Numbered from the stretch's first letter, positions 2,588 through 30,978 are shown. The stretch is DNA of 64,000 bases from Eledone cirrhosa (GCA_964016885.1 OZ024761.1:18538001-18602000); one strand, 5' to 3'. The notes: generated from the letters alone by a model not told the origin. A program made the numbers and translations.

Positions 2588-2990
2588 ACCCCCTCTCTTT
2601 CCAACATCCCCCTCTCTCTTCTCTTTCCAACATCCCCTCTCTCTTCTCTTTCCAACATCCCCCTCTCTCTTCTCTTTCCAACATCCCCCTCTCTCTTCTC
2701 TTTCCAACATCCTTCTCTCTCTTCTCTTTCTAACATCCTTCTCTCTCTTCTCTTTCCAACATCCCCCTCTCTCTTCTCTTTCCAACATCCCCCTCTCTCT
2801 TCTCTTTCCAACATCCCCTCTCTCTTCTCTTTCCAACATCCCCCTCTCTCTTCTCTTTCCAACATCCCCCTCTCTCTTCTCTTTCCAACATCCTTCTCTC
2901 TCTTCTCTTTCTAACATCCTTCTCTCTCTTCTCTTTCCAACATCCCCCTCTCTCTCTCCTACTCTCTTTCCAACATCCCTCTCTCTCCTC
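2588..2990. repeat. ~26-bp pyrimidine-rich minisatellite
   Basis: Tandem ttccaacatccccctctctcttctct, ~15 copies. Confidence 0.9.
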
Positions 2991-3147
2991 CTCTTCCTTT
3001 CTCTGTCATGTCTTCACCATTTTCGTATTGGTCTTCCGTCGTGTGACAACACAAACTCTAGTCTTTCCTTCCGTCTCTAAAGCTGAGACCACTGCCAACT
3101 TTTCGATACTTTCATACATTTACACAAAAACTAACCAAACCAAAACA

Positions 3148-3173
3148 ATGGTGTACAACAAATCTTGTGTGCT
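3148..3173 (+). CDS. LIMK1: Candidate alternative first coding exon of LIM kinase (MVYNKSCV-L)
   Basis: caaaacaATGG start context, 8 codons plus CT, then a consensus GTGAGT donor at 3174. Phase 2 matches the acceptor at 8428 (CT|G = Leu, then CSRCQ). No homology support. Confidence 0.55.
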
Positions 3174-3710
3174 GTGAGTATTTTCAATGGTATCTTCTCC
3201 GTCTCCTTTTTGTTTTTAAATTTCATTTTATTATATTTTATTATATTATATTATAAATTGAATAACTTATTTAATAATTTATTTATCAACTTCTTAAGTG
3301 ACATCGGTCCACCATTTGTTTTGATGAAATACCGTTATAGATAGATAGATGGACAGACAAACAGATTGGCAGACAAAGACATTTTAAGATGTGGTTTTTG
3401 GGGGGGAGAGGGGGTCATCTCTTGGTGTTGTAACCCCCAGCTCAGTCCCTGGGCTTAACAAGATCTACGTTTAACCCCCTACGTTTAACCAATGATAGGA
3501 AATGATTGTAAGGTCCCATGTAAAGATGAGGGAGGATCGATAGTCGAAAAAGTTTTTGATAGTCCCTGCTTTACGAGGGTCTACTGAAAATCAGTCCCTG
3601 GTCATAACAGACCTACGTTGAACCAATTGTGGGAAATAATTGTAAGATTCCATGTAAGGAGGGGGGGGGGGTCGATAGTCTAAAAGGTTTTTGATGGTCC
3701 CTTCTTTATT

Positions 3711-3908
3711 TACGAGGGTCTACTGAAAAGTTCATAGGCTGATCAAGATACTCTCATGGAATGACCAAATGAGGTTTATTTTTCAACATAGTACCTGGAG
3801 CTAAAACAATGCAGTTATTAATAAGAGTTGAAATTAATGCGTGTGCAAGATTTCACAGCTCTAGCATCACTCCTTCATAGTCAGCCCATGAACTGTTGCA
3901 GCTGACCG
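3711..3908. mobile_element. Mariner/Tc1-type MITE
   Basis: Starts tacgagggtc..gaaaagttcataggctga and ends in the inverted tcagcccatgaactgtt; second copy at ~48817-48995. Confidence 0.7.
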
Positions 3909-4206
3909 TTGTTGATGTTTAATCCACCGTGTCAGGCTCTGGTCAAGCAGATTCAATGATTTAAACCGTTTCGGATCATAGTGACCATCCTGTCATTTTA
4001 AAAAAATATATACCACCATTTTATCCTATATGTCCTCCTTCTCCCTTTTTTTTTTAAAACAACAGGGCATGGGTTTATTTTTAGGGGTTTGAGGGTGTAA
4101 CTTGACTGCTATTTCTAGCATGTCAAACGTCAACTTAGAAAATCCTTCCTTCTCTTCTGTTGTCATAGTGTGCTGGATCGTGTACACACACACGCACACG
4201 TATATA

Positions 4207-4303
4207 TAAGGTGTACCCCAAAAATATATGCACAAAAGCTGTGCATTCTAATATACATTGCCTCTACAGGTAATCAAAATGTGGAAACACTTTTTGGGAC
4301 ACC

Positions 4304-4310
<7 letters not shown>
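4207..4310. mobile_element. Short Tc1-like MITE
   Basis: Imperfect TIRs (aggtgtaccccaaaaa / tttttgggacaccctgta); inverted copy at ~54080-54193. Confidence 0.6.
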
Positions 4311-4373
<63 letters not shown>

Positions 4374-4493
4374 CCACACACAATGACAAGTACACGATTA
4401 TGTGTGTGTTTATGCCTTGTTTCTATGTTAAACAACTCTAATTAATATTTCCGTCTCCTGGCAAAAGCAAGGATTGTTGCGTGTGTGTGAGTG

Positions 4494-4524
<31 letters not shown>

Positions 4525-4703
4525 ATGTGTGTTTGTGTGTGTATTTCACACCTCTTAAGACATACAACATCCGGTCATAACTGATTGTCTCTTGAGCTAT
4601 GTGGAGAATGTGTGTATGTATGTATATATATATATGCTGCTTGAATGCGTATCTAAGTGTGGTATTGTATATTATTTATATAATGTGGATGTGTTTGTTT
4701 GTG

Positions 4704-4753
<50 letters not shown>

Positions 4754-4766
4754 TATAAATACCCAA

Positions 4767-4805
<39 letters not shown>

Positions 4806-4976
4806 AGTAGAAGTTGTATTTAATTTGTTGGAAGTCCGACAAACATAAATGTTTATAACTGATTTAGAGCACCCAACAAGTTACTGGAGTAAATAGTCAA
4901 TGATATTAAATAAATGGAAACTATATTTATATTTATAAATATGGTTTTATAAATATAGTTTCCATTTATTTAATAT

Positions 4977-5031
<55 letters not shown>

Positions 5032-5286
5032 CAGAGAGATAGAGAGATAACAGCCCCATTTTCCGAACAATATTTATAATATACCACATATTTTGATGTA
5101 AGCTTTTGAGGGTAGGCCCTGTAGATAAGGCACGAGTATATATTGTCTTTAGTATTTTAGTTAGTTTGTTTTTTCACGTAATATTTTCATGGAAATAGGT
5201 GCGACTTACACGCGAATCTGTTGAGTGCATAATGGTGACTCTTTATGAAAGAGGAGGCGAAAGAAAGTGGTGTTGTTGGCCTAAGA

Positions 5287-5724
5287 CAGTGGTTCACAAC
5301 CTTTTGTGTATCATGCCCCATCTCAACATCTAAAAAAATGATTATACCCCACCACCACCATCATCTTTGATACTAAAACAGCTATGATCAACTGCAAACT
5401 GTAAACAAATTGGTGTATAGGTGGTGCCAGATGTACAATAACATATGTGGAGGAGGTGAGACAGGAGGTTCTGACATATAGGTGGTGCCAGATGTACAAT
5501 AACATATGTGGAGGAGGTGAGACAGGAGGTTCTGACAGTAATGTGTACATATAGGTGGTGCCAGATGTACAATGATATGTGAAGAGGTGAGACAGGAGTT
5601 TCTGGCAGTAATGTTTACCAAAGTTACCTTAGTGTAAATAAAACCTTAAATTTGTTCTCATTAACATCATTTTCAAATGGCCTCCTCTAAATATTCAAAT
5701 CGCGCCCCGCGTTAGGAATCACTG
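5287..5724. mobile_element. hAT-type MITE with an internal tandem repeat
   Basis: Ends cagtggttcacaac / gttaggaatcactg; 8-bp TSD gcctaaga / acctaaga; internal repeated aggtggtgccagatgtacaat..gagacaggag unit (3x). Confidence 0.75.
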
Positions 5725-6096
5725 ACCTAAGAAGATGGCAACCACAAATTAAGGAAAAAATAATGTATTGTTTTATGTGGGAGGGGGGTAGTGATGTATC
5801 ATCAATGGATTTTTGATGAATGAAATATTATAAAATAACAAACAATTCTTTGTAAATAACAATAGAAGTGTGTACTTTGTCCACCTTCCCTTCTAACTTC
5901 ACATTTTCTTCGTCTTCTTCCTCCTCGTCATCTTCATCCTCTTTGTTTTCTACATAAAAGGAATATTTCTTTCGGATCTATTTTTATTTGCTACTATAAA
6001 AAGAATTAGAGAGATAGGAAGGAAGAGAGAGACAATGCAACAAGTACTTCTTCTTTCTTAAGTTAAAAGTTGTCAAAACAAAGAACAAGTGTTGCT

Positions 6097-6129
<33 letters not shown>

Positions 6130-6880
6130 CACTACTACTACTCCTGTATATCCCATCATCACATTCTGAGATGGTGGAGGGGGAGATATTGTGTCTTATC
6201 CAGAGATGGGGAGGGGAGGGGAAGCATATTGGCCCCTGGCGTTTGGGTCGGTCCTGAGTAGAGTGCGAGAAAGAGAGGGGGTGGGGGATATTGTGCCCCT
6301 TCCATACATCATATCATGACGTGGGTATGGTAGAAGAGGAAGGAAGGAATGCTGTGCTCCTTCTTTCAATACATCACATCCTTATGTTGGGGTGACAAGG
6401 GTGAAGTGAATGAGGGAGGGAGGGAGTGAGAGAGATGGAGATATGGTGTTCCTTCTTCCATACATCACATCCTGACGTGGTAGAGAGAGATAAAGGGAGG
6501 AAACACGGTGCTCTTTCAACCATACATCACATCTTGGAGTAAGGAGGGGCGAGATATGGTGTGCTCCTCCTCCTATACATTGTCCTCATCTTCCCACCAC
6601 CCCTGACAATTACTATTATTATTATTATATTTATATTCTGAATTCAAATCCCGCCGAGGTTGACTTTGCCTTTCATCCTTACGGGGGTCGATAAAATAAA
6701 GTACCAGTAATGTACTGGGGTTGATTTAATCGATGTTCCCCTCACCCCAAATTACTGGCCTTGTACCTATGTTAGAAATCATTATTAGAGATGGTGGATT
6801 GGCAGTATCGGTAGAGCGTCAGATACCATGCTTTGCAGCATAGAGTTATGGCCCTTTATGTTCTGAGTTCAAATCCCGCT

Positions 6881-7458
6881 ATGTGGCCTGACCACTCCAC
6901 ACAGTCCAGCTCTGTGGCCTGTCCACCCCACACAGTCCAGTTCTGTGGCCTGTCCACCCCACACAGTCCAGCTCTGTGGCCTGTCCACCCCACACAGTCC
7001 AGCTCTGTGGCCTGTCCACCCCACACAGTCCAGCTCTGTGGCCTGTCCACCCCACAATCCAGCTCTGTGGCCTGTCCACCCCACAATCCAGCTCTGTAGC
7101 CCACACAGCCCAGCTCAGTAGCCCGTCCATCCCACACAGTCCAGCTTTATGGCCTGTCCATCCCACACAGTCCAGCTTTATGGCCTGTCCATCCCACACA
7201 GTCCAGCTTTATGGCCTGTCCATCCCACACAGTCCAGCTTTATGGCCTGTCCATCCCACACAGTCCAGCTTTATGGCCTGTCCATCCCACACAGTTCAGC
7301 TTTATGGCCTGTCATTCCACACAGTCCAGCTTTATGGCCTGTCCATCCCACACAGTCCAGCTTTATGGCCTGTCCATCCCACACAGTCCAGCTTTATGGC
7401 CTGTCCATCCCACACAGTCCAGCTTTATGGCCTGTCCATCCCACACAGTCTAGCTTTA
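6881..7458. repeat. 31-bp minisatellite attached to a truncated SINE-A head
   Basis: Unit tggcctgtcca(c/t)cccacacagtccagct(ctg/tta), ~18 copies. Confidence 0.92.
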
Positions 7459-7694
7459 TTTTTATAGGTTTTGCCATCTGAAGAGCTCAGGCTATCATAA
7501 CTTATATTCCTCAGTGAAATATGTATAACAGAGTTTTAAATAAACCTGAATCAACTGATTATGGTCTCAGATCTTTTACTGATATATAATGCTCTGGCTT
7601 GCATCATTTATACAGGTCGTTCAGCACTTCCTTTTATCTGCTTCACAACCAACAGACTTGAATGTGATCCACACATCCCTGTTCGGATAACTAT

Positions 7695-8178
7695 ATCATC
7701 ATCATCATCATTTTACGTCCGCTTTTCCCTGCTTGCAAGGGTTGGACGGGTCCTATTCAGTACATCATCTCTCCACCCGTCACGGTCCTTCGTCCTCTCC
7801 TCCGTGAGTTTCAGCGATCTGAGGTCTGCTCTCACCACCTCTGCCCATGTTTTACGTGGTCTACCTCTACTGCATCTTCTTCTACTGCGTCTTCCTTCTA
7901 ATGGGACTTCCTGGCACTTCTTCACCCATCGGTCATCCTCCATGCACATCACATGTCCATACCATCTCAGCCTTCTCTCCTGCACACAACAACAACTTAT
8001 GCCTCTTAAACCCAGTTTCTTTCTCAACTCGTCTATGCTTGGTCGTTCACGCACATTGACATTGCACATCCAACGGAGCATACTTGCTTCATTTCTCTCC
8101 AGCCATCGCATATCTTCTGCAGTTGCTGCCCATGTCTCACTACCATGCAGCATTGCGCATCTCACACAGGCATCATAT
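7695..8178 (-). mobile_element. RTE LINE 3' end (RT C-terminus and tail)
   Basis: MLHGSETW...ERRLRWYGHVMCM...GRPRKTW; tail cccttgcaagcagggaaaagcggacgtaaaa(tga)n; homologous copies at 49285-49472(+), 55930-56395(+), 27780-27950(-). Confidence 0.9.
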
Positions 8179-8427
8179 AAGGTTGGTGTTAGGAAGGGCA
8201 TCCAGCTGTAAAAATACCAGCTAAAATACAGTTCCATTTGAACAAGGTGTGGCGCAGCCAGCTGGCCGGACTTGTGTCATAATGTGGACAACCTCTCTAA
8301 CCCATGCAAGCATGGAAAAACAAACGTTAAATGATGATAATGATGATGATGAATGGGTGTGTCTCTGTGTGTTATGTTTACTCTTAATTCTTATCTAATG
8401 ACATGTCTTGTCCTATCTCTCCCACAG

Positions 8428-8563
8428 GTGTTCTAGATGCCAACGCAGGCTAACCAACTGGTACTTTGAAAAGGGTGGACAGTTATTCTGTCGCCAGGAT
8501 TACTGGACAATATATGGTGATGCTTGTCATGGTTGTTCAGAATTAATTGCCGGACCTGTCATG
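8428..8563 (+). CDS. LIMK1: LIM kinase exon: second half of LIM1 and start of LIM2
   Basis: cccacag acceptor, gtaggt donor; CSRCQRRLTNWYFEKGGQLFCRQDYWTIYGDACHGCSELIAGPVM matches the LIMK LIM zinc-finger pattern. Confidence 0.95.
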
Positions 8564-9704: not shown

Positions 9705-9814
9705 GTGGCCGGAGAGCACCGCTACCACCCAGAATGTTTTCTTTGCTGTCACTGTTCTACCTACATAGGAGATGGAGAAGGGTACGCCTTAGTGGAACGG
9801 ACAAAACTCTACTG
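9705..9814 (+). CDS. LIMK1: LIM kinase exon: LIM2
   Basis: ttcag / gtaact; [36 protein letters not shown](C). Confidence 0.95.
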
Positions 9815-10800
9815 GTAACTATAACTCTCTATATATATATAACTCTCTACCTCTCTCCTGGTAACCATAACTCTCTCTATATATATAACTCTCTAGCTCT
9901 CTCCTGGTAACTATAACTCTCTATATATATAACTCTCTAGCTCTCTACTGGTAACTATAACTCTCTATATATATAACTCTCTAGCTCTCTACTGGTAACT
10001 ATAACTCTCTATATATATAACTCTCTAGTTCTCTCCTGGTAACTATAACTCTCTATATATATATAACTCTCTAGTTCTCTCCTGGTAACTATAACTCTCT
10101 ATATATATATAACTCTCTAGCTCTCTCCTGGTAACTATAACTCTCTATATATATAACTCTCTAGCTCTCTCCTGGTAACTATAACTCTCTATATATATAA
10201 CTCTCTAGCTCTCTCCTGGTAACTATAACTCTCTATATATATAACTCTCTACCTCTCTCCTGGTAACTATAACTCTCTATATATATAACTCTCTAGCTCT
10301 CTACTGGTAACTATAACTCTCTATATATATAACTCTCTAGTTCTCTCCTGGTAACTATAACTCTCTATATATATATAACTCTCTAGCTCTCTCCTGGTAA
10401 CTATAACTCTCTAGCTCTCTCCTGGTAACTATAACTCTCTAGCTCTCTCCTGGTAACTATAACTCTCTATATATATAACTCTCTAGCTCTCTACTGGTAA
10501 CTATAACTCTATATATATAACTCTCTAGCTCTCTCCTGGTAACTATAACTCTCTAGCTCTCTCCTGGTAACTATAACTCTCTCTATATATAACTCTCTAC
10601 CTCTCTACTGGTAACTATAACTCTCTATATATATAACTCTCTAGCTCTCTCCTGGTAACTATAACTCTCTATATATATATAACTCTCTAGCTCTCTCCTG
10701 GTAACTATAACTCTCTATATATATAACTCTCTAGCTCTCTCCTGGTAACTATAACTCTCTATATATAACTCTCTACCTCTCTCCTGGTAACTACAACTCT
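9807..10800. repeat. ~44-bp minisatellite built from the exon/intron junction of the LIM2 exon
   Basis: ~24 tandem units of ctct(a/c)ctgGTAACTataactctc(ta)n actctctAG; the first unit overlaps the true donor at 9815. Confidence 0.95.
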
Positions 10801-10871
10801 ATCTTACTTTATCTTCTCAACACTTTGTAAAACTCCAAGAGATCAGCTACATATACACAATATATATATAC

Positions 10872-11095
10872 AGTGAAGGCGTGTGGCTGAGTGGTTAGAG
10901 AACTGGATTCGCAATCATGAGGTTGTGAGTTCGATTCCTGGACCGGGCGATGCGTTATGTCCTTGAGCAAGACACTTTATTTCACATAGCTCCTTCTACC
11001 TGGAGTTGCGACCGATAGATAGTATTAGCAATTGGAAAGACCAATGGAAACACTGTTTCCTCGGTCCGATTTGACGAAAGTCGATCGTTAGGAAT
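10872..11095 (+). mobile_element. tRNA-derived SINE family C
   Basis: tggctgagtggttag A-box, gagttcgattcc B-box, ccttgagcaagacacttta CORE-like segment; inverted copy at ~18962-19188. Confidence 0.8.
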
Positions 11096-11100
11096 ATATA

Positions 11101-11272
11101 TACTGTATTTCCCAGTGCTGAAGACGCTTCGTCCTCCAGGACACACCCTAATTTTGACAACCAAAAATTGTTTTTTAAATTATAAAAAACGTTCGGCCTC
11201 CAGGGCGCATGGTAGATTTTTGAGACGTATTTTAGGAAAAAAGTAGCATCTATGATGCCGGGAAATACGGTA
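11101..11272. mobile_element. pogo/Tc-type MITE
   Basis: TA-flanked TIRs tactgtatttccc / gggaaatacggta. Confidence 0.7.
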
Positions 11273-11361
11273 TATGAAAAAATTCAGGACCCTGACGGCT
11301 GAGCTCTGGCCGTTTTGAGTTCTCTGGTGGGTTATGGTCCACTTGGTATTTTAGCTCACCC

Positions 11362-11397
<36 letters not shown>

Positions 11398-11697
11398 AGG
11401 TTATATTTAATTTGTTGGGATACAACAAGCTAAAATATTTTTATAACTGATATAAAGCACTCAACTAATTTGCATACTAAATCAACAATAAATCTAATAT
11501 TTCCACTATCCAGGAAGCTCCAACCGTTAAGGTTGCATTTTTTCAGGGTATGTCAATATTTATTTATAAAACTAATCTAATCTGTATTATATTTTATTTG
11601 ATGAAAACGCACCATAATCTGCCTTGGTGGCCTTTGAAATATGTATAATAAAATAAATATGGTTTTATAAATATAGTTTCCATTTGTTAATATATTG

Positions 11698-11741
<44 letters not shown>

Positions 11742-11900
11742 ATTATATATATATTATATATATATATATCATCATCATCATCGTTTAACGTCCATTTTCC
11801 ACGCTAGCATGGGTCTTATTATATATATATATTATATATATAAATATATGAAATTATATAAATATATATATATATATTTATATAATTTCATATGCCATAG

Positions 11901-12240
11901 AGGCACATGGCTTAGTGGTTAGAGCATTGGCCTTGCAATCGAAAGGTTGTGAGTTCAATTCTCAGACCGGGTAATGTGTTGTTTCCTTGAGCAAGACACT
12001 TTATTTCACATTGCTCCAGTTTACTCAGCTGTAGAAATGAGATGATAGGACTGGGGGTCCCTATCATTCCACTGCAAAGTGGTCGTGGAGGTGCCACGGC
12101 AAAAAAGCCCCAGCACTCACTGTAAATGAGGTTGGTGTTAGGAAGGGCATCCAGCTGTAGAAATCAAGCCAGAATCAGTTCCCGTCCCACCCTTGCAAGC
12201 AGGGAAAAAGCGGACGTCAAAATGAAATGATGATGATGAA
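11901..12240 (+). mobile_element. tRNA-derived SINE family B with an RTE-derived tail
   Basis: tRNA-like head, CORE-like segment, ttggtgttaggaagggcatccagctgtagaaa, then the RTE 3' tail; copies at ~15628-15955(-), 30570-30896(-), 49485-49820(+). Confidence 0.85.
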
Positions 12241-12292
12241 TGATGATTTATATAATTTCATACCATTTTTTACTATTTCTTCTCTTGTCCAG

Positions 12293-12484
12293 TATATATT
12301 GCTACAACAATGTAATGAAACCGAAATTCACAGAAATGCCTGAAAACCGGAAACCTCATTCCATCCAGCTGATTGAGATTCCAGCCAACCCCGACAGTGG
12401 CAGTCGTGGGGTACAGCTCACTGTAGAAAAAGGTGGCTACACCCCGTTTCAAAAGGGAGCATCCCATCTCATCCGAATTTCAGG
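12293..12484 (+). CDS. LIMK1: LIM kinase exon: end of LIM2 and N-half of PDZ
   Basis: gtccag / gtatgt; (C)IYCYNNVMKP...PHSIQLIEIPANPDSGSRGVQLTVE...LIRIS(G); phase 2-2 is consistent with its neighbours. Confidence 0.92.
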
Positions 12485-12609
12485 GTATGTGTGTGTTGTT
12501 TCTGAAACTTTTCTTGGTCATCATCATCATCATCATCATGTGAGATAGGAAAGAATACATGTGTTGTTGTTAGTCAGCCATATATATATTATCATCATCA
12601 TCATTTAAC

Positions 12610-13335
12610 ATCCATCTTCCACGTAGCACTCATATCTGAGGGTTGGGGAGCATGGACTTATGGACCACTACTCTCCATCATCTTCTGTCTCTTTCCATCA
12701 CCGTATATTCCACCATAATCCTTCCTGTATCATGTGGCTCTTTTGTTTCCCGTGTAGTCGTCCCTTAAGGATGTGGGTAGTCAAATTTTGAGCCCTGATA
12801 ACATGACCAAAACACTGAAGTTTCCATTTCCTTACTGTTTCAACCAAATGTCAATTGGCACCAATCTCTTCCAGGACAGATTCATTGTTCTGTGAGCTGT
12901 CCATTTAATTCTAAGTGCACCCCTATAGCATGACATTTCAAATGCAGTCAGTCATTTCAAGTCAGATGCCTTTAAAGTCCATGACTTACAACCATATAGA
13001 GCTACTGGCCACGCTAATGTTTTGATTACTTTCTTTTTGGTGGACTTTGTAAGAGTTCTATCCTTCCAAAGGCTGCTGAGTGTGCTCAGAACTGTTCTTG
13101 TAGTTACTAGTCTCGCCCTTATTTCCCAGCTTCCCTTTGCCATCTGCTCAAGTATTGAACCAAGGTATTTGAACTTCTTGACCTGTTCAAGCCTGGCACC
13201 TTGGCACTGTGTATTCATTTCTTCATTCTGTCTAGTTGCTGCCATTACCTTTGTCTTTTTGACGTTGATCTCCACACTATATTCCCTTGAAATTCTGTCA
13301 ACTTTATCCAGCAGTGTTTGCAGATTTCTAGCAAG
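12610..13335 (-). mobile_element. Degenerate RTE LINE reverse-transcriptase fragment
   Basis: EINVKKTKVM...LEQVKKFKYLGS...PVALYGCKSWTL. Confidence 0.85.
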
Positions 13336-13552
13336 TTATCCCTTTAGCATTTAAACCGGCTGTATCCAGCCGGAATTCTCTCACCTCTTTCTGTTCAAAC
13401 CAGCTGTAACCTGCTGCTCACACTGATGTTAGGTATTGTTCTCAAAATATATATCAAAATCTCATAGATTTGATATTATGTGAGATAAGGTAAAGCCTTA
13501 ACCACAAAAATATAATGGTAAATATAGAGTAATGTAAATGCTAAAGGGTTAA
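13336..13552. mobile_element. piggyBac-like MITE (~210 bp)
   Basis: Family ends TTAA-CCCTTTAGCATT ... AATGCTAAAGGG-TTAA; copies at ~24745-24970, 34511-34725, 37311-37464, 40082-40294, 40490-40825, 53794-54015, 55047-55260, 58702-58905, 63459-63868. Confidence 0.8.
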
Positions 13553-13628
13553 ACAACCATGTAGAGCCCTCCCTGTTGTTTTCATTGTTTTATTTATTTA
13601 TTATTTATATTTTTTCTGTTTTACTTAG

Positions 13629-13722
13629 ACTTGATGGCAGCCCTGAATTAAATTCTTTAAATGTTGGTGATAAAATTTTAGAAGTAAACGGCACAGCGGT
13701 GAAGGAAAAATCTTTCGATGAG
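13629..13722 (+). CDS. LIMK1: LIM kinase exon: PDZ C-half
   Basis: cttag / gtagcc; LDGSPELNSLNVGDKILEVNGTAVKEKSFDE contains the PDZ GD.ILEVNG motif. Confidence 0.93.
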
Positions 13723-13735
13723 GTAGCCTCTCTTT

Positions 13736-13771
<36 letters not shown>

Positions 13772-13900
13772 AATTTCTGTGATTCTGTCACAACACGTAA
13801 AGAGAGAGGAGTAGTTTGACTACCTCATACTACTCCTCTCTCTATGTTTGCTGCTTGGGTCAATGTATGTGTTTGTAAAAGGAAGGCAGGGGGTGGTGAA

Positions 13901-13931
<31 letters not shown>

Positions 13932-14112
13932 TCCACACATCTCTTGGCGTTCCATTTATTATGATGTGTATGTGTTTGTGTGAATCTATGCCTGAGTGTG
14001 TATGTTTGTAAGTATGTCTGTGTTTGCATGTTTATATTTATATACTCATACATATAAATGTATGCATACACACATATACACATACGTGTCAGCATGTTTA
14101 AAAAAATCCTAG

Positions 14113-14236
<124 letters not shown>

Positions 14237-14556
14237 TGTATGTAAAAGGTAAACAAATAACAAAACAAATGGTACAGTATATGGAAGGAATATATTAGTT
14301 TAATTGAAATAGCAGGAAGAGGGCCTTAACGTTTTGGATGATAGTCCTTCATCAGAAGAAAGAATGAGAAATTAGAAAGATTGAGGGGACAAGCAGAGCG
14401 GAATCGGGACATAATTTCTAGAGTGTTGAAAAAATTATAATTTTATCTTTTCTTGTTAGTGTTTTTTTTTTTTACCAAAGCTAATTATATTATATATTTT
14501 TTTAATCTTTTCCTCAACCCCACCTCACTACTTCATCACCATCGCCATCACGTCAG

Positions 14557-14822
14557 ATTGACTCTTTGGTCAAAAATACCAATGAAACAATCCAGTTGAC
14601 TGTTGAGTCCGAATCAAACCCCATAATTGGAGAATCTCCATCCAGAGAGACTTGTCGCAGCTTTTCCAGCATCGAATCTGGGTCACCTACCGAGATAGAC
14701 GGCATGCCAGTGCCGTTCAGACGGAATTTTTCCAGCCCCGAACCTAGCAGTTCTCCCACTGAGATAGACGTGGATGGCATGCGAGTGCCGCTTAGACAGA
14801 AATCTTTATTAAAAGCTAGAAA
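14557..14822 (+). CDS. LIMK1: LIM kinase exon: PDZ end and Ser/Pro-rich linker
   Basis: gtcag / gtaagt; IDSLVKNTNETIQLTVE...SLLKAR; phase 0-2. Confidence 0.9.
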
Positions 14823-15050
14823 GTAAGTATCTACATTCCTTTCATTTCTAAACCATCTTCTGTTGTATTCGTTGTGTTGTGGTGGTTGTGATGTGACTGT
14901 TGAGGGAGTGTTTGTAATGGTTGGGTTGTGTGTGTCAGTTGTGGGGTGGGTATCTTTATCTGTCATCCTTGGGCGATGTCTGTTGGATCAAAAGTTTACG
15001 TCTGTCTGTCTGTCTGTTCATATTTCCATGTCTATTCATCCATATATCCA

Positions 15051-15104
<54 letters not shown>

Positions 15105-15570
15105 GTTTATAAATTGGGATGGTCTAAAGTAACTGTCTTTCGTTTATTATTATAATTACGGGGTCGATAAAATAAAGTACCAGTAATGCACTGGGTATTT
15201 GCTGGCCTTGTGCCTAACGTAGAAACAATTATTATAATAAAACTTATTTATATAATAACTTAATATTATAACTTATAAAAGGGCGGTGGATTGGCAGTAT
15301 CGGTAGAGGGTCAGACGCCATGCTTTGACGCATAGAGTTACGGTCCTTGCCATTCTAAGTTCAAATCCCGCCGAGGTTAACTTTGCCTTTCATCCTTATG
15401 GGGTCAATAAAATAAAGTACCAGTAATGCACTGGGTAATGGCTGGCCTTGTGCCAAAAGTAGCAACAATTATTATAATCAAACTCTGGTTAAACATATAT
15501 CGTTGAGTGCTTGAAATCTGTTATATATGTCAGCTGATTCTAAATCAACTAACTCTTTGTCGTTGAACAA

Positions 15571-15617
<47 letters not shown>

Positions 15618-16051
15618 TATATATATCATTTTCATTTTATTTTACGTCTGCTTTTCCCTGCTTGCAAGGGTGGGACGGGAACTGATCCTGGCTTGATTTC
15701 TACAGCTGGATGCCCTTCCTAACACAAACCTCATTTACAGTGAGTGCTGGGTGCTTTTTTGCCATGGCACCTGCACGACCATTTTGCAGTAGAATGATAT
15801 GGACCCTAGTCCCTATCATCTCATTTCTACAGCTGAGTAAACTGGAGCAATGTGAAATAAAGTGTCTTGCTCAAGGAAACAACACATCACCCAGTCTGAG
15901 AATTGAACTCACAACCTTTCGATTGCAAGGCCAATGCTCTAACCACTAAGCAATGTATATGTATATATATATATCCACACACCTCTATCTACCTATTTTA
16001 TTATTTTTTACCTGTGGTTATATCTCTGTTGTAATTTCTGCTGTGTTCCAG

Positions 16052-16235
16052 TTATAGTCCGTCAAAGCGGAGAAGCAAGTCTCCATCGCCAGCGCCCCCA
16101 ACACGACAAAAGACACTTGAGTTGACTCGGGCCAATTCCTTCCGCAACCAAACGCAATCCCACCGGATGTTTCGCTCAAGTGACCTTCAGCTTGGAGAGG
16201 TTCTTGGAAAAGGATTTTACGGTCAAGCAACTAAA
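16052..16235 (+). CDS. LIMK1: LIM kinase exon: linker and kinase Gly-rich loop
   Basis: ttccag / gtgagt; ...RRSKSPSP...HRMFRSSDLQLGEVLGKGFYGQATK. Confidence 0.93.
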
Positions 16236-16709
16236 GTGAGTGTACAGCTCCTCGATGGGGGTCTAGCAGTGTTGACAGTATTTATTCTGGGTCCTTTGTC
16301 TCCTGAATGTTTGGAATATAACTTAACAAAGGTTCTTAATTAAAATTATGATGGAAGGTTTTTTGATAAAACTCTTTTGTCCCTATATTTCTAATGATTT
16401 CCAAATAAGTCTGAAAATATTTAAGAATTTGGAGAGATTTAGTAATATAACTAACTTTCTCATTATTTACAAGTCTTTAGAACATAACTTAACAAAGGTT
16501 CTTACATATAATCATGGTGGAAAGGTTTTAGATAAATATTATTTCAACCCCTTTGTTTCCATATTTCTTATAAAAATAAACACTGTCTCTGATTTTCAAA
16601 TAATTTTGAAAATATTTAAGAATTTGGAAATATCTTGCAATATAACTTACTTTCTCATAATTAGCTGGTGTTTGGAACATAACTAAACAAAGGTTCTTAT
16701 ATAAGTAAG

Positions 16710-16990
16710 AAAACAGCAAAGTAAGAAAACAGCACAGTTCCCATGACTTTCGGAAACATTTTTTCACGCTCAGAGTTGCTGAAGCATGGAACAAACTACC
16801 TGCATCAGTTGTTAGCTGTCGAGACACTGCATCCTTTAAGGCCTCCATGCTTCCCGAGATCCGCCAACAGAACAGCTAACACATACACACATGTACTTCT
16901 CTGACATTTGTGTATTATTCTATGTACTATATTGACGAGTTGTAGTGCACCTGAGCACTTTACACAATAATTTCATTATTATATTATTAT
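16710..16990 (+). mobile_element. CR1/L2-clade LINE 3' end
   Basis: Encodes FRKHFFTLRVAEAWNKLPASVV; the 3' UTR is repeated at ~59530-59615. Confidence 0.75.
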
Positions 16991-17763
16991 AAAGATAAAC
17001 TAGCAGAAAAACCACCCTTTGGGTGGTTTTCTGCTAGCATGTGTAGTGTGTATATTGATATTATATGTAAGTATATATACATGTAGATATGATACATCAA
17101 ATAAAATCGTAATTGACAATATACACGGAAATTGAACGAAGACTGTGTTACACTGTCTTATGTAATCAGTAACGTAATCCATGATACATTAAAAAAAGAC
17201 GATATTATATATAAACTGCATTGGGAGAAAATTAGTGACGGAAATATATGAATGTCTATTTAAGCGATCGCTACCCGGAAGTGTTGACATTTGAAAATTT
17301 TAAAGAAGTGAATCTTTAAATATGTAATGAAATATATTTAATGAGCAGCCACGAAATTTAGTAAAAAAATTATGTAATATTCATTCATTATTTATTCAAA
17401 GTAATTTGACGCATAGAGTTACGGTCCTTGCCATTCTGAGTTCAAATCCCGCCGAGGTTAACTTTGCCTTTCATCCTTACGGGGTCGATAAAATAAAGTA
17501 CCAGTAATGCACTGGGTAATTGCTGGCCTTGTGCCAAAAGTAGAAACAATTATTTATTCAAAGTAATCCAACTTATTTTACAAACGGGATAAAAAAATAT
17601 ATTCTGGATGCATTCCCTCACTCCTTACTTTATTATAGTTTAGATATATACACTTCAAAACAGATAGTTTTGTATCATAGAACCCGGGATTTGGTGGGGG
17701 AAGTTTTATATCAAAATGGTTAAAGATAGAGCATGATCAAAACTGTTCTCTTTTCTCTTGCAG

Positions 17764-17850
17764 GTAACTCATAAAACCACAAAAGAAGTGATGGTTCTGA
17801 AAGAATTAACAAGAATTGATGAAGTAGCCCAGAAGAATTTCATGAAAGAG
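17764..17850 (+). CDS. LIMK1: LIM kinase exon: catalytic Lys and alphaC helix
   Basis: ttgcag / gtttgt; VTHKTTKEVMVLKELTRIDEVAQKNFMKE (not in the supplied ORF track). Confidence 0.95.
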
Positions 17851-17919
17851 GTTTGTTTGTACCTTATGTCATATTAGGAGCAACATAAGAGTATTGCTCC
17901 TATCATTTTTTTAGCGGAG

Positions 17920-18150
17920 TGCAGACGTTTGTAATTTTTCTACAAAAATGACTAAATTTTCTGACAATTTTGGAGGGATGCAGACGTTTGTAATTTTCTG
18001 ACAAAAGTGACTAAATTTTCTGGCAATTTTGGGGGGATGCAGACGTTTGTAATTTTCTGACAAAAGTGACTAAATTTTCTGACAATTTTGGGGGGATGCA
18101 GACGCTTGTAATTTTCTGACAAAAGTGACTAAATTTTCTGGCAATTTTGG
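17920..18150. repeat. 59-bp tandem repeat (~4 copies)
   Basis: gcagacgtttgtaattttctgacaaaagtgactaaattttctgacaattttgggggat. Confidence 0.9.
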
Positions 18151-18356
18151 GAGGTGTGGCTGCACCCCATGCACTCCCAGCAATATGCCTCTGAGAGGCA
18201 GTGAATTGACAGTTAAGACGTTAGATAGAATGTTTTGCAGTATTCGTTCTCTCTTCACAAATTGTGCTGGGGTCCACTTTGCCTTTCGTCCTTTTGAGGC
18301 TGATAAAAACAAAAGTACTAGTCCACTACAGTACTAAGGTTGATCTCTCTCTCCCT

Positions 18357-18421
<65 letters not shown>

Positions 18422-18611
18422 GGTTTGATTAAAATACCAGGAGGCCAGAAACGCACACACACGCATACACACATATAGATTTACATATATATACATACAC
18501 ATGCCATCACACATACACGCACACACACACATACACACATATACATATAAAAACAAAAGTACTGGTCCACCACAGTACTAAGGTTGATTCTTCCTTATCT
18601 CTCTCTCTCTC

Positions 18612-18691
<80 letters not shown>

Positions 18692-19166
18692 TTGGTTTGA
18701 TTAAAATATCAGGAGGCCAGATTGGTAATGTTCCTTTAAAGATTTATTGTTGCAAAAACGCTATATATATATATATATATATTTCAATGGCCTGATTGCG
18801 TAAGATCCTGTCGGCATCATCAGGTGCAGATTGCATAATTAGTTAATCAATAAAGGAGTTGAGGCAAACACAAGTAGAAAACATATAAACAGAAAAAATG
18901 GTTAACTAAACAGAATGACCAGTTCTATCCAGTGGTGAACCACTAAACATAAATGAATATATATATCGACAGTCGATCGACTTTCGTCAAATCGGACCGA
19001 GGAAACAATGTTTCCATTGGTCTTTCCAATTGCTAGTACTATCTATCGGTCACAACTCCAGGTAGAAGGAGCAACGTGAAATAAAGTGTCTTGCTCAAGG
19101 ACATAACGCATCACCCTGTCCGGGAATTGAACTCACAACCTCACGATTGTGAATCCAATTCTCTAA

Positions 19167-19457
<291 letters not shown>

Positions 19458-19593
19458 TGAGTATAATCCACATGGGTCACACCGTTGTGTGCCTTTTCTA
19501 AACCTGATAAAACAGCAAAACAAACACTTTTTTGGGGGCCACATCAAGCCTTTAACTCCTTCGTTACCATATTTCTAATAAAATACTCCCCCT

Positions 19594-19790
19594 ATCATCA
19601 TCATCCACGTTTTGATTATGCAGGACACAATTAATTCCGAAGTAGGGGTGGGCTCTGCCTGACAGTGCTCCTTAGCGTCCTGCTCCATGTGTTTCTGTCT
19701 ACCAGTTTCACTTGGGCCAGACCAAACCTTGCTTGATCCTAACAAACATCCTCCATCCGTCCTTTTTTGGTCTTCCTGGGCGTCTACTGC
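19594..19790 (-). mobile_element. RTE LINE 3' terminus adjoining the 87-bp array
   Basis: The minus strand continues GRPKK...W from the array unit and ends in a (gat)n tail at ~19594. Confidence 0.7.
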
Positions 19791-22700
19791 CTCCTGGGTT
19801 GACATTCATCACTTTGCTGATCCAGCCCTCACTGCACTCAACATGGCCACACCAGCCTCTTCCTGGGCCTCTACTGCCTCCTGGGTTGACATTCATCACT
19901 TTGCTGATCCAGCCCTCACTGCACTCAACATGGCCACACCAGCCTCTTCCTGGGCCTCTACTGCCTCCTGGATCAACATTCATCACTTTGCTGATCCAGC
20001 CCTCACTGCACTCAACATGGCCACACCAGCCTCTTCCTGGGCCTCTACTGCCTCCTGGATCAACATTCATCACTTTGCTGATCCAGTCCTCACTGCACTC
20101 AACATGGCCATACCAGCCTCTTCCTGGGCCTCTACTGCCTCCTGGGTTGACATTCATCACTTTGCTGATCCAGTCCTCACTGCACTCAACATGGCCATAC
20201 CAGCCTCTTCCTGGGCGTCTACTGCCTCCTGGGTTGACATTCATCACTTTGCTGATCCAGTCCTCACTGCACTCAACATGGCCATACCAGCCTCTTCCTG
20301 GGCCTCTACTGCCTCCTGAGTTGACATTCATCACTTTGCTGATCCAGTCCTCACTGCACTCAACATGGCCATACCAGCCTCTTCCTGGGCCTCTACTGCC
20401 TCCTGGGTTGACATTCATCACTTTGCTGATCCAGTCCTCACTGCACTCAACATGGCCATACCAGCCTCTTCCTGGGCCTCTACTGCCTCCTGGATCAACA
20501 TTCATCACTTTGCTGATCCAGCCCTCACTGCACTCAACATGGCCACACCAGCCTCTTCCTGGGCCTCTACTGCCTCCTGGATCAACATTCATCACTTTGC
20601 TGATCCAGTCCTCACTGCACTCAACATGGCCATACCAGCCTCTTCCTGGGCCTCTACTGCCTCCTGGGTTGACATTCATCACTTTGCTGATCCAGTCCTC
20701 ACTGCACTCAACATGGCCATACCAGCCTCTTCCTGGGCCTCTACTGCCTCCTGGGTTGACATTCATCACTTTGCTGATCCAGTCCTCACTGCACTCAACA
20801 TGGCCATACCAGCCTCTTCCTGGGCCTCTACTGCCTCCTGGGTTGACATTCATCACTTTGCTGATCCAGTCCTCACTGCACTCAACATGGCCATACCAGC
20901 CTCTTCCTGGGCCTCTACTGCCTCCTGGGTTGACATTCATCACTTTGCTGATCCAGTCCTCACTGCACTCAACATGGCCATACCAGCCTCTTCCTGGGCG
21001 TCTACTGCCTCCTGGGTTGACATTCATCACTTTGCTGATCCAGTCCTCACTGCACTCAACATGGCCATACCAGCCTCTTCCTGGGCGTCTACTGCCTCCT
21101 GGGTTGACATTCATCACTTTGCTGATCCAGTCCTCACTGCACTCAACATGGCCATACCAGCCTCTTCCTGGGCCTCTACTGCCTCCTGGATCAACATTCA
21201 TCACTTTGCTGATCCAGCCCTCACTGCACTCAACATGGCCACACCAGCCTCTTCCTGGGCCTCTACTGCCTCCTGGATCAACATTCATCACTTTGCTGAT
21301 CCAGTCCTCACTGCACTCAACATGGCCATACCAGCCTCTTCCTGGGCCTCTACTGCCTCCTGGGTTGACATTCATCACTTTGCTGATCCAGTCCTCACTG
21401 CACTCAACATGGCCATACCAGCCTCTTCCTGGGCGTCTACTGCCTCCTGGGTTGACATTCATCACTTTGTTGATCCAGCCCTCACTGCACTCAACATGGC
21501 CATACCAGCCTCTTCCTGGACGTCTACTGCCTCCTGGGTTGACATTCATCACTTTGTTGATCCAGCCCTCACTGCACTCAACATGGCCATACCAGCCTCT
21601 TCCTGGGCGTCTACTGCCTCCTGGGTTGACATTCATCACTTTGTTGATCCAGCCCTCACTGCACTCAACATGGCCGTACCAGCCTCTTCCTGGGGTCTAC
21701 TGCCTCCTGGGTTGACATTCATCACTTTGCTGATCAAGCCCTCACTGCACTCAACATGGCCATACCAGCCTCTTCCTGGGCCTCTACTGCCTCCTGGGTT
21801 GACATTCATCACTTTGCTGATCCACCCCTCACTGCGCTCAACATGGCCGTACCAGCCTCTTCCTGGGCCTCTACTGCCTCCTGGGTTGACATTCATCACT
21901 TTGCTGATCCAGTCCTCACTGCACTCAACATGGCCATACCAGCCTCTTCCTGGGCCTCTACTGCCTCCTGGGTTGACATTCATCACTTTGCTGATCCAGC
22001 CCTCACTGCACTCAACATGGCCATACCAGCCTCTTCCTGGGCCTCTACTGCCTCCTGAGTTGACATTCATCACTTTGCTGATCGAGCCCTCACTGCACTC
22101 AACATGGCCATACCAGCCTCTTCCTGGGCCTCTACTGCCTCCTGGGTTGACATTCATCACTTTGCTGATCCAGCCCTCACTGCGCTCAACATGGCCACAC
22201 CAGCCTCTTCCTGGGCCTCTACTGCCTCCTGGATCAACATTCATCACTTTGCTGATCGAGCCCTCACTGCACTCAACATGGCCATACCAGCCTCTTCCTG
22301 GGCCTCTACTGCCTCCTGGATCAACATTCATCACTTTGCTGATCGAGCCCTCACTGCACTCAACATGGCCGTACCAGCCTCTTCCTGGGCCTCTACTGCC
22401 TCCTGGATCAACATTCATCACTTTGCTGATCGAGCCCTCACTGCACTCAACATGGCCATACCAGCCTCTTCCTGGGCCTCTACTGCCTCCTGGATCAACA
22501 TTCATCACTTTGCTGATCGAGCCCTCACTGCACTCAACATGGCCGTACCAGCCTCTTCCTGGGCCTCTACTGCCTCCTGGATCAACATTCATCACTTTGC
22601 TGATCGAGCCCTCACTGCACTCAACATGGCCATACCAGCCTCTTCCTGGGCCTCTACTGCCTCCTGGATCAACATTCATCACTTTGCTGATCGAGCCCTC

Positions 22701-24117
22701 ACTGCACTCAACATGGCCGTACCAGCCTCTTCCTGGGCCTCTACTGCCTCCTGGATCAACATTCATCACTTTGCTGATCGAGCCCTCACTGCACTCAACA
22801 TGGCCATACCAGCCTCTTCCTGGGCCTCTACTGCCTCCTGGATCAACATTCATCACTTTGCTGATCGAGCCCTCACTGCACTCAACATGGCCGTACCAGC
22901 CTCTTCCTGGGCCTCTACTGCCTCCTGGATCAACATTCATCACTTTGCTGATCGAGCCCTCACTGCACTCAACATGGCCGTACCAGCCTCTTCCTGGGCC
23001 TCTACTGCCTCCTGGATCAACATTCATCACTTTGCTGATCGAGCCCTCACTGCACTCAACATGGCCATACCAGCCTCTTCCTGGGCCTCTACTGCCTCCT
23101 GGATCAACATTCATCACTTTGCTGATCGAGCCCTCACTGCACTCAACATGGCCATACCAGCCTCTTCCTGGGCCTCTACTGCCTCCTGGATCAACATTCA
23201 TCACTTTGCTGATCCAGTCCTCACTGCACTCAACATGGCCATACCAGCCTCTTCCTGGGCCTCTACTGCCTCCTGGGTTGACATTCATCACTTTGCTGAT
23301 CCAGCCCTCACTGCACTCAACATGGCCATACCAGCCTCTTCCTGGGCCTCTACTGCCTCCTGAGTTGACATTCATCACTTTGCTGATCGAGCCCTCACTG
23401 CGCTCAACATGGCCGTACCAGCCTCTTCCTGGGCCTCTACTGCCTCCTGAGTTGACATTCATCACTTTGCTGATCGAGCCCTCACTGCGCTCAACATGGC
23501 CGTACCAGCCTCTTCCTGGGCCTCTACTGCCTCCTGAGTTGACATTCATCACTTTGCTGATCGAGCCCTCACTGCGCTCAACATGGCCGTACCAGCCTCT
23601 TCCTGGGCCTCTACTGCCTTCTGGGTTGACATTCATCACTTTGCTGATCAAGCCCTCACTGCACTCAACATGGCCATACCAGCCTCTTCCTGGGCCTCTA
23701 CTGCCTCCTGGGTTGACATTCATCACTTTGCTGATCAAGCCCTCACTGCACTCAACATGGCCATACCAGCCTCTTCCTGGGCGTCTACTGCCTCCTGAGT
23801 TGACATTCATCACTTTGCTGATCAAGCCCTCACTGCACTCAACATGGCCATACCAGCCTCTTCCTGGGCCTCTACTGCCTCCTGGGTTGACATTCATCAC
23901 TTTGCTGATCAAGCCCTCACTGCACTCAACATGGCCATACCAGCCTCTTCCTGGGCCTCTACTGCCTCCTGGGTTGACATTCATCACTTTGCTGATCCAG
24001 CCCTCACTGCGCTCAACATGGCCGTACCAGCCTCTTCCTGGGCCTCTACTGCCTCCTGGGTTGACATTCATCACTTTGCTGATCCAGCCCTCACTGCACT
24101 CAACATGGCCGTACCAG
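19771..24117. repeat. 87-bp tandem array (~50 copies, ~4.35 kb) derived from RTE LINE coding sequence
   Basis: The unit reads WYGHVECSEGWISKVMNVNPGGSRGPGRG on the minus strand (RTE RWYGHV...GRP motif); one 1-bp deletion near 21694. Confidence 0.95.
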
Positions 24118-25304
24118 CGCATGCTGATTTTCAAATCATTTTTAAAAAATAACCAAGAATCAGGAAGGATTTTATAATATAACTAAGTTCCTCATTATTA
24201 AATTGGCATGGCATTTAAAATATCATCATCATCATCATCATCAGCATCATTATCATTTAATGTCCTCTTTCCCTGCTAGTAAAGGTTGGACAGGTTTCCC
24301 TAAACCAAGTCAGCATTGAGGCAAGGTTACTGGCCTCCCAGACAAGCCGGTGGGGGTCTGCATCTTGCTTATGTAGTCATACATTCTTTCGAAGGCAAAA
24401 ATGATTGGCCTTGTGCCTAAATCAGAAACCATTATGAACTCAGTGGATTGGCAGTATCGGTAGAGAGTCGGACACCATGCTTTGAAGCATAGAGTTACGT
24501 CCCTTTATGATCTGAGTTCAAATCCCGACGAGGTTAACTTTGCCTTTCATCCTTATGGGGTCGATAAAATAAAGTACCAGTAATGTACTGGGTATTTGCT
24601 GACCTTGTGCCTAAAATAGAAACAATTATGAACTATAGGGTAAAAACTGTTGTTTCTTTTGTCCTTTTTATTCATTCAACCCTAATTCCCTCCCCCCTTA
24701 TATTTCATATCAGCATTGTACCAGCTTTTCTAATACATTCTTCTTAACCCTTTAACATTTAAGCTGGCCATATCCAGCCAAAATTCTCTCACCCCTTTCT
24801 GTTCAAACCATTTGTAACCGGCCAGTCATACCAACATTTAGGTATTGTTCTCAAAATAAATATCAAAATCTCAGATTCAATATTATGTGAGAAAATTACA
24901 TGAAGTAAAGCCTTTACTGTGAAAATACATAGTAAATATAGAGTAATGCAAATGCTCTATATTTAGGGTTGAATAATATTATAATGGAAGGTTTAAATTT
25001 AAATATGCATTCTTTAAAATCAACAGCTTCCTATCATGCGGCTGGGGTAGGTGTAGGGTTTGGGGCAATTTCAGGCAGTTTAGTATCACAACGGTTAAAG
25101 AACTGTTGGTTTTTAATTTTTTTTTTTTTAATTAAAATTAATATCTTGTTATTCTGTAACTTGCTGTGAACCCCAAAGCTCTGTGTGGTCCGCTGGTGGT
25201 CCAGGTAGGCTGCTGGTGGTCTAGTTCAACTGCTGTAGACCCACATGTGGTCCAGGTGGACTGCTGGAGGCCTGTTTGTGGTCCAGTTGAACTGCTAAAA
25301 GCCT

Positions 25305-25486
25305 GCATGGCTCAATGTTGTATATCACTAGTCTCAAATGTTGTTGATGTTGGCTCAATTCCAGACCATGGCTCAATATTGTGTATCACTAGCCTCGAAT
25401 GTTGTTGATGTTGGCTCAATTTCAGATCATAGCTCAATATTGTATATCACTAGTCTCAAATGTTGTTCATGTTGGCTCAATTTCAG
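25305..25486. repeat. 61-bp triplication ending in the LIMK splice acceptor
   Basis: Units end ...gttggctcaatt(c/t)cAG at 25364, 25425 and 25486. Confidence 0.9.
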
Positions 25487-25590
25487 AGTTCATTTCCGGT
25501 GGAACTGTAAAAGATTTCTTACATGATTTGACAATCAGTTTGACTTGGGAGACACGAGTGAAGATGTGCAAAGATATAGCTGCAGGAATG
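25487..25590 (+). CDS. LIMK1: LIM kinase exon: hinge to alphaE
   Basis: tttcag / gtaagt; (E)FISGGTVKDFLHDLTISLTWETRVKMCKDIAAGM. Confidence 0.94.
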
Positions 25591-25715
25591 GTAAGTCATG
25601 ACAGCCTCTTCATCCTCATTTCTCTCTATCTATCTCTGTCAGTCTGTCTACCTTGTATCTCTAACTATTTATATGTCTACCTCTCTATTTATCTTCAGAC
25701 TGTTTATATCTCTAT

Positions 25716-25753
<38 letters not shown>

Positions 25754-28031: not shown

Positions 28032-28097
28032 GAATATTTACATTCCATGGACATTATCCACCGGGACTTGAACTCCCAGAATTGTTTAGTAAAAGAG
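28032..28097 (+). CDS. LIMK1: LIM kinase exon: catalytic loop
   Basis: ttccag / gtttgt; EYLHSMDIIHRDLNSQNCLVKE carries the LIMK-type HRDLNSxN loop. Confidence 0.96.
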
Positions 28098-28139
28098 GTT
28101 TGTATTATTTATTTATCTCCTTATATTTGTAGATGCTGT

Positions 28140-28850: not shown

Positions 28851-28952
28851 CTTATATATATATATATATATATATTACAGGCTTCTACAAGGTGTCTGTC
28901 TCCCAAATTTCACCCACAAAGCATTTATTATTTATTCTATGTTTGTTTATAG

Positions 28953-29390
<438 letters not shown>

Positions 29391-29438
29391 TAAAGGTTAG
29401 CAACTTGTGGAAATTCTGTTATTGGGTAAATAATGAAA

Positions 29439-29471
<33 letters not shown>

Positions 29472-30260: not shown

Positions 30261-30415
30261 ATCATTGGCCGTGTTGTTGCTGACCCAGACTACCTTCCAA
30301 GGACATATGACTTTGGTATGAACGCCGAGGCCTTTCTCAGTAAATTTGCCAAGGACTGTCCCAATGCCTTTTTCAAACTCTGTCTATTGTGTTGTCAACT
30401 CAACCCAGACAGTCG
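30261..30415 (+). CDS. LIMK1: LIM kinase exon: C-lobe
   Basis: ttccag / gtaggt; IIGRVVADPDYLPRTYDFGMNAEAFLSKFAKDCPNAFFKLCLLCCQLNPDS(R). Confidence 0.96.

Positions 30416-30894: not shown

Positions 30895-30978
<84 letters not shown>

What the first reader, a model, noticed from the sequence alone, without database searches (positions are those of the whole stretch)
3100..8563. Candidate alternative first exon giving a LIMK2b-like isoform with 1.5 LIM domains
Seen: an ATG in a strong caaaacaATGG context (3148), 26 coding nt and a perfect GTGAGT donor in exactly the phase required by the 8428 exon. It sits in a unique, non-repetitive island (~3000-3200). I found no exon for the first half of LIM1 between 1 and 8427. 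Known: vertebrate LIMK2b uses an alternative first exon joined at the equivalent mid-LIM1 junction and loses the first zinc finger, and the LIM domains restrain kinase activity. Inference: this invertebrate LIMK may make a truncated-LIM isoform from an internal promoter, either convergently or as an ancient shared feature.
Basis: partly seen in the sequence, partly recalled or inferred. Interest (0 to 1): 0.72.

Follow-up and report, generated by a model that had tools for sequence, protein, structure and literature searches.

The report
Octopod LIM kinase short-start exon
A tiny start exon in an octopus-like animal's LIM kinase gene likely replaces the first zinc finger of this actin regulator, as in human LIMK2b, and the same shortcut is annotated in many other animals, so it is probably real but fairly ordinary.

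Summary
In detail: ATG 3148, 26 coding nt, GTGAGT donor, phase 2 matching the 8428 exon of a single-copy, intact LIMK. No RNA run of this species was available, so the junction is not shown here. Support comes from relatives: 5 of 9 intron-less cephalopod-like LIMK proteins (75 of 79 contigs) start MGYN(S)N..RYL directly on the same exon, and the 3148 exon is the best match to that start among 9,457 possible ATG-to-donor mini-exons in the 147-kb intron. The canonical zinc-finger-1 exon lies 139 kb upstream of the window; a third 5' exon 40 kb upstream is identical (12 of 12 aa) to the Argonauta model's start. Same-junction truncated isoforms are annotated in 9 of 9 mollusc clusters checked, a nemertean, a brachiopod, a tick, amphioxus and vertebrate LIMK1, with unrelated leader peptides. 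So the design is a recurrent use of one old intron, not an octopod oddity and not LIMK2-specific. Whether the exon has its own promoter, and whether the kinase is de-repressed, is untested. A lead: none of 10 cephalopod-like proteins carries full LIM1. Interest 0.33.

The parts
3148..3173 (+). Coding part of the alternative 5' exon (9 codons with the junction codon), phase 2
   Evidence: best of 9,457 candidates against the P0003 start
3174..3179 (+). Splice donor GTGAGT
3001..3147 (+). Likely 5' UTR / promoter-proximal unique DNA; start of transcription unknown; out-of-frame 12-codon uORF 3008-3046; frame of the 3148 ATG is open for at least 50 codons upstream
   Evidence: inference
3060..3082 (+). 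Possible acceptor (AAG, 16 of 20 pyrimidines), phase 1 to the 3148 frame; basis of the internal-exon rival
   Evidence: 81 of 982 150-nt blocks hold such a site
2594..2955 (.). CT-rich 26-bp x14 tandem array just upstream
8428..8563 (+). Shared exon: zinc finger 2 of LIM1 and start of LIM2. Two further 5' exons that fit its phase lie upstream of the window: a 12-aa exon from G000:C22:18497587 (40 kb before base 1) and the canonical finger-1 exon at L015:974-1097 (139 kb before base 1)
   Evidence: Pfam LIM positions 29-56; upstream exons
9705..32103 (+). Twelve further coding exons (LIM2, PDZ, linker, kinase, Thr-rich tail); AG/GT ends, open frame of 923 aa to TGA at 32101

Best explanation
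The 26-nt reading frame at 3148-3173 is likely the coding end of an alternative first exon that would splice to 8428 and swap the first zinc finger of this LIM kinase for a 9-residue leader. Shown: the sites, the phase, the intact downstream gene, a canonical finger-1 exon 139 kb upstream of the window, a second short exon 40 kb upstream, and a homologous leader on the same exon in spliced proteins of a relative. Inferred: the gene has several promoters in and before its 147-kb phase-2 intron; each gives a kinase with the same finger 2, LIM2, PDZ and catalytic domain but a different N-terminus. The likely effect is separate transcriptional control plus changed partner binding, location or half-life (as for LIMK2b), rather than a constitutively active kinase, because LIM2 and the PDZ domain stay.
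For: Five of 9 members of a Logan cluster (P0003-6, P0011; 75 of 79 contigs, longest contigs 2.3-5.8 kb holding 675-685-aa ORFs, hence spliced) begin with a 9- or 10-aa leader on the CSRC exon. Thirteen leaders of other invertebrates leave 279 to 4,688 candidates ahead of it. The P0003 group lies outside window + Argonauta (100/99; 84.6% against 91.8% identity), so the exon predates that split. AlphaFold of P0003 keeps finger 2 confident (blocks 11-40 pLDDT 83-87; residues 1-10 mean 62). LIMK2b lacks half of LIM1, is separately induced by p53 and has a 6-h against 24-h half-life (PMC3749167, passages); a PDZ surface mediates autoinhibition (PMC10730565, introduction and passages).
Against: No RNA evidence for this species. 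Similarity is 5 of 9 residues on a very short peptide; with the 10-aa P0005 leader the exon is best of 67 GTRAG candidates but 3-7 of 9,457 score higher and 35 of 200 shuffles match it; against all GT donors 15 of 200 shuffled P0003 leaders find an equally good candidate somewhere. The organism behind P0003 is unnamed and its DNA was not seen. No in-frame stop lies in the 150 nt before the ATG and a fair acceptor exists at 3082. The AlphaFold alignment held many full-LIM1 rows and had no control. Reviews also credit the LIM domains with inhibition, so some de-repression is possible.
Confidence: 0.72

Rival explanations
1. The exon is real but internal: 3083-3173 (91 nt) is spliced from an upstream exon. 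Either a non-coding exon precedes it (same protein, no promoter at 3000), or it is a phase-1/phase-2 exon mutually exclusive with the canonical finger-1 exon.
For: Acceptor with 16 of 20 pyrimidines, same phase and first two bases as the canonical exon; open frame upstream of the ATG.
Against: AAG acceptor, whereas the 13 downstream acceptors and the canonical one are CAG or TAG; 81 of 982 blocks hold such a site; relatives' proteins start at the matching Met; A-rich run before the ATG looks like UTR.
Confidence: 0.15
2. Chance or decayed site: the ATG-donor pair is not used in this species, and the relative's leader comes from elsewhere or has been silenced here.
For: Thousands of candidates exist; weaker match to P0005; Gly2, Asn5, Arg7 and Tyr8 of the relative differ.
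Against: Same length, top rank of a pre-named candidate, consensus donor and start context all coincide.
Confidence: 0.08
3. The mini-exon is a decayed duplicate of the 3' end of the canonical finger-1 exon rather than a newly recruited leader.
For: Its last 8 residues are the best of 471 nine-residue candidates against the canonical tail; 11 of 3,661 score better on a tail profile; it and the -40 kb exon both have Cys at the fourth-ligand position, found in 52 of 3,661 candidates.
Against: Post hoc; most of the score is one Cys that the relative lacks (P0003 122 better, P0005 1,301 better of 3,661); 8 of 26 nt identical and exon-level DNA score reached by 418 of 500 shuffles.
Confidence: 0.05

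Closest known systems
Vertebrate LIMK2b (isoform of LIMK2)
   Same: Loses half of LIM1, replaced by an unrelated short sequence; rest of the kinase kept (PMC3749167, PMC10000741, passages).
   Different: The host gene is the single invertebrate LIMK, not the LIMK2 paralogue (duplication after Ciona, PMC1781342). Exon homology to LIMK2b was not tested: no LIMK2b sequence was compared, and its exact junction is recalled, not checked. p53 control and half-life untested.
Truncated LIMK1 isoforms of vertebrates
   Same: A LIMK1 form missing the start of LIM1 is mentioned in PMC10000741; dog and teleost LIMK1 models switch N-terminus at the same junction.
   Different: Teleost leaders tested are unrelated to the octopod one.
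RefSeq X2/X3-type LIMK isoforms of molluscs, Tubulanus, Lingula, Ornithodoros and Branchiostoma
   Same: Full and truncated forms side by side, switch at the same Cys; several leaders are conserved within a genus or family (venerid clams, scallops, oysters, abalones, amphioxus).
   Different: No detectable homology to 3148-3173 among the leaders tested (those were not scored); they are automatic annotations whose read support I did not see.

Membership tests
LIM kinase (LIMK) | Two LIM domains, PDZ, C-terminal kinase | tested here: met
   Exons match P0002 and P0003 along their length; those proteins carry LIM, PDZ and kinase in Pfam; finger-1 exon upstream
LIM kinase (LIMK) | Intact kinase motifs incl. 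HRDLN, DFG and activation-loop Thr | tested here: met
   open frame of 923 aa
LIM kinase (LIMK) | Phosphorylates cofilin Ser3 | not testable with these tools
   needs assay
LIMK2b-type isoform | Finger 1 of LIM1 lost, finger 2 kept | tested here: met
   Pfam LIM 1-27 on the upstream exon, 29-56 on the 8428 exon
LIMK2b-type isoform | Short unrelated leader spliced at mid-LIM1 | tested here: inconclusive
   shown in a relative's spliced proteins; junction not seen in this species
LIMK2b-type isoform | Same gene can encode the full two-LIM form | tested here: met
   intact in-phase exon 139 kb upstream of the window, no other LIM finger-2 exon between; its expression is not shown
LIMK2b-type isoform | Own promoter / true first exon | not testable with these tools
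   no CAGE or RNA reads; possible acceptor at 3082
LIMK2b proper | Product of the vertebrate LIMK2 paralogue | tested here: not met
   one LIMK exon match in this genome; groups with cephalopod-like proteins; paralogues arose in chordates (PMC1781342)
LIMK2b proper | Exon homologous to the LIMK2b first exon; p53-induced; short half-life | not tested
   no LIMK2b sequence compared; regulation needs experiments

The most novel reading that the evidence does not exclude
In coleoid cephalopods the 1.5-LIM kinase has become the main product, made from several short start exons, while the full-length form is minor and carries an odd finger 1 (Cys2-His spacing 26 against 17 in 118 of 128 homologues); across bilaterians finger 1 is an optional module swapped at one ancient intron by independently recruited leaders.
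Probability: 0.3. Interest if true: 0.55.

Novelty: new member of a known kind. Interest (0 to 1): 0.33.

Why it matters
LIMK2b's half-LIM start has been called unique to LIMK2 (PMC3749167). This locus and the annotated isoforms of molluscs, a brachiopod, a tick and amphioxus suggest it is a repeated, probably much older way to tune LIM kinase. That gives a comparative handle on what LIM1 finger 1 does, which is open: the basis of LIMK autoinhibition is described as unclear (PMC10730565). It also corrects cephalopod gene models, which need at least three 5' exons over 147 kb. It is not a new mechanism.

Tried and rejected
Sequencing runs: no RNA holder listed (a long, intron-rich query, so a weak search). 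The three runs laid behave as DNA of one sample and cannot show splicing. A protein search with the canonical exon found nothing (weak evidence). The representatives search added little; its proteins entered only the pooled tests. Metagenome scan: 2 loci at 50-54% identity, not followed. Earlier findings: nothing shown. The first tree used wrong exon ends (13 stops) and was discarded; the first tail comparison was off frame and the first 26-nt comparison off by one, redone. A DNA match between flanks of the two exons was AT-repeat only. A hydrophobic candidate exon at -76 kb resembling the clam leader: 139 and 318 of 1,000 shuffles did as well. Of 31 leaders tested against the 67 GTRAG candidates only P0003 gave 0 of 200 shuffles; one abalone leader gave 2 of 200, taken as chance. 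No homologue of the 26-aa P0010 leader in 464 kb. No excess of hydrophobic residues before the junction in leaders (background is repeat-biased). Nagata 1999 on LIM inhibition is not held, so which LIM domain inhibits was not read at source. No cephalopod genome other than G000 could be searched.

Full report
Observation. The sequence is as described. ATG at 3148, 26 nt, donor GTGAGT at 3174; the exon at 8428 begins one base before a Cys codon, so the phases fit. The island 3001-3200 has one match in the genome and single-copy depth in three DNA runs of one sample. The 8428 exon has one match in the 3.0-Gb genome. With corrected AG/GT ends the gene runs to TGA at 32101 as a 923-aa open frame with intact kinase motifs. 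Its core is 91.8% identical to an Argonauta hians LIMK model, so the animal is an octopod-like cephalopod.

Upstream anatomy (negative numbers extend the window coordinates upstream). I fetched 400 kb upstream. A finger-1 exon with acceptor, four zinc ligands and a phase-2 donor lies at -139026..-138903. It matches Pfam LIM positions 1-27 (E 9e-4, under the curated cut-off) while the 8428 exon matches 29-56. It is the only finger-1 hit in 464 kb and no other finger-2 exon lies between, so it belongs to this gene. Its Cys2-His spacing is 26, against 17 in 118 of 128 distinct homologues (2 have 28). A second short exon at -40413..-40379 encodes 12 of 12 residues of the Argonauta model's start; that model is a genome annotation whose transcript support I did not see.

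Is 3148-3173 used? No RNA run was listed. A search with the 8428 exon returned two proteins. P0003 heads a cluster of 9 Logan proteins, all read; their ORFs sit unbroken on contigs of 1-6 kb, so they come from spliced RNA (inference). Five begin with MGYNNSRYL or a 10-residue variant on the CSRC exon (75 of 79 contigs), one with Met-Arg, one with a 26-aa leader, two are internally truncated, none has finger 1. Against the P0005 leader it is first of 67 but 3-7 of 9,457 score higher and 35 of 200 shuffles match. Thirteen control leaders leave 279 to 4,688 candidates ahead of it. The P0003 group branches outside window + Argonauta. I take this as good but indirect evidence that the exon is real and old within cephalopods.

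How widespread? Of 129 proteins classed (the query exon, the cephalopod-like set and the best-scoring of the 225 hits), 88 have full LIM1, 33 are truncated at this junction and 8 were unclassed. In 10 clusters listed (8 chosen because the representative was truncated, 2 with full representatives), 10 of 10 hold both forms (only 15 of 25 and 15 of 128 members listed for two). In a less biased set of 8 invertebrate clusters with full representatives, 3 of 8 have named same-junction isoforms (Lingula, Branchiostoma, Liolophura); Limulus, Glandiceps, Daphnia and Penaeus show none (15 of 27 and 15 of 28 listed for the last two) and Tribolium gives only unnamed or metagenome fragments. Molluscs total 9 of 9. 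Dog and teleost LIMK1 models do the same. Leaders are conserved within genera or families but those tested are unrelated to the octopod one. The simplest reading is an old intron between finger 1 and finger 2 that lets any upstream ATG exon of phase 2 give an in-frame kinase; leaders were recruited repeatedly or diverged beyond recognition, and these data cannot tell which. The intron itself was seen only in this genome; its position elsewhere is inferred from where the proteins switch.

Mechanism. Shown: sites, phase, three 5' exons, homologous spliced leader in a relative. Predicted: finger 2 stays folded (no control). Inferred: an internal promoter; a kinase that keeps LIM2 and PDZ. LIMK2b is induced separately by p53 and turns over four times faster than LIMK2a (PMC3749167); LIM domains bind BMPR-II, PKC and neuregulin (PMC2172847); autoinhibition involves a PDZ surface and its basis is unsettled (PMC10730565). 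I therefore favour changed regulation, binding and stability over release of the kinase (about 60:40, inference). Rivals: internal exon from an acceptor at 3082 (0.15), chance or decay (0.08), decayed duplicate of the canonical exon (0.05).

Literature seen. Passages: PMC10000741, PMC3749167, PMC8834001, PMC11432035 (47, nothing relevant), PMC1781342, PMC2172847, PMC8750758, PMC10605254, PMC8699892; passages and Introduction of PMC10730565; abstract and outline only of bioRxiv 10.64898/2026.06.23.733925. No supplements were read. Seven searches listed no paper whose title or abstract start deals with half-LIM LIMK isoforms in invertebrates; the library lacks most subscription journals, one search listed 20 of 461 and one search listed 12 of 27. 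The isoforms themselves are already in RefSeq.

Verdict. Likely real, a new member of a known kind. It works like LIMK2b in architecture but is not LIMK2b. Interest 0.33. The boldest open reading, that the short form dominates in coleoids, rests on 0 of 10 cephalopod-like proteins with full LIM1 and on contig counts that assemblers can bias (probability 0.3).

Noticed in passing
G000:C22 near 18437448 (about 100.5 kb upstream of the window): Another ATG-donor pair with consensus start context and GTGAGT donor in phase 2, four codons long; possible further 5' exon. Two more such pairs at 76.3 kb (hydrophobic, 17 codons) and 24.1 kb upstream.
   Followed up: partly
L015:974-1097: The canonical finger-1 exon has an Asp-rich insertion of about 9 residues inside the zinc finger.
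   Followed up: partly
window 3148-3173 and G000:C22:18497587-18497621: Both short exons put a Cys three residues before the junction, where the fourth zinc ligand normally sits; the relative's leader does not.
   Followed up: partly
window 16035-16058: Tandem acceptors 6 nt apart; relatives' proteins occur with and without the matching two residues (P0003 against P0004), so the choice looks conserved.
   Followed up: partly
window 19771-24118: 87-bp unit repeated 50 times, 97% matches, inside a LIMK intron.
   Followed up: no
window 25306-25487: 61-bp unit in three copies ending at the acceptor of a kinase exon, leaving two upstream acceptor-like copies.
   Followed up: no
window 31074-32103: Long last exon with a Thr/Asp/Cys repeat tail; the Argonauta model also has a long Thr-rich tail, the P0003 group a short one.
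   Followed up: no
L021:4090-5166 (about 196 kb upstream, + strand): 359-aa open frame with a polyprenyl synthetase domain, E 1e-76, apparently in one exon.
   Followed up: partly
window 55257-55826, - strand: Frame holding what looks like a coding exon of a neighbouring gene; PHF12-like by recall only, no Pfam support.
   Followed up: partly
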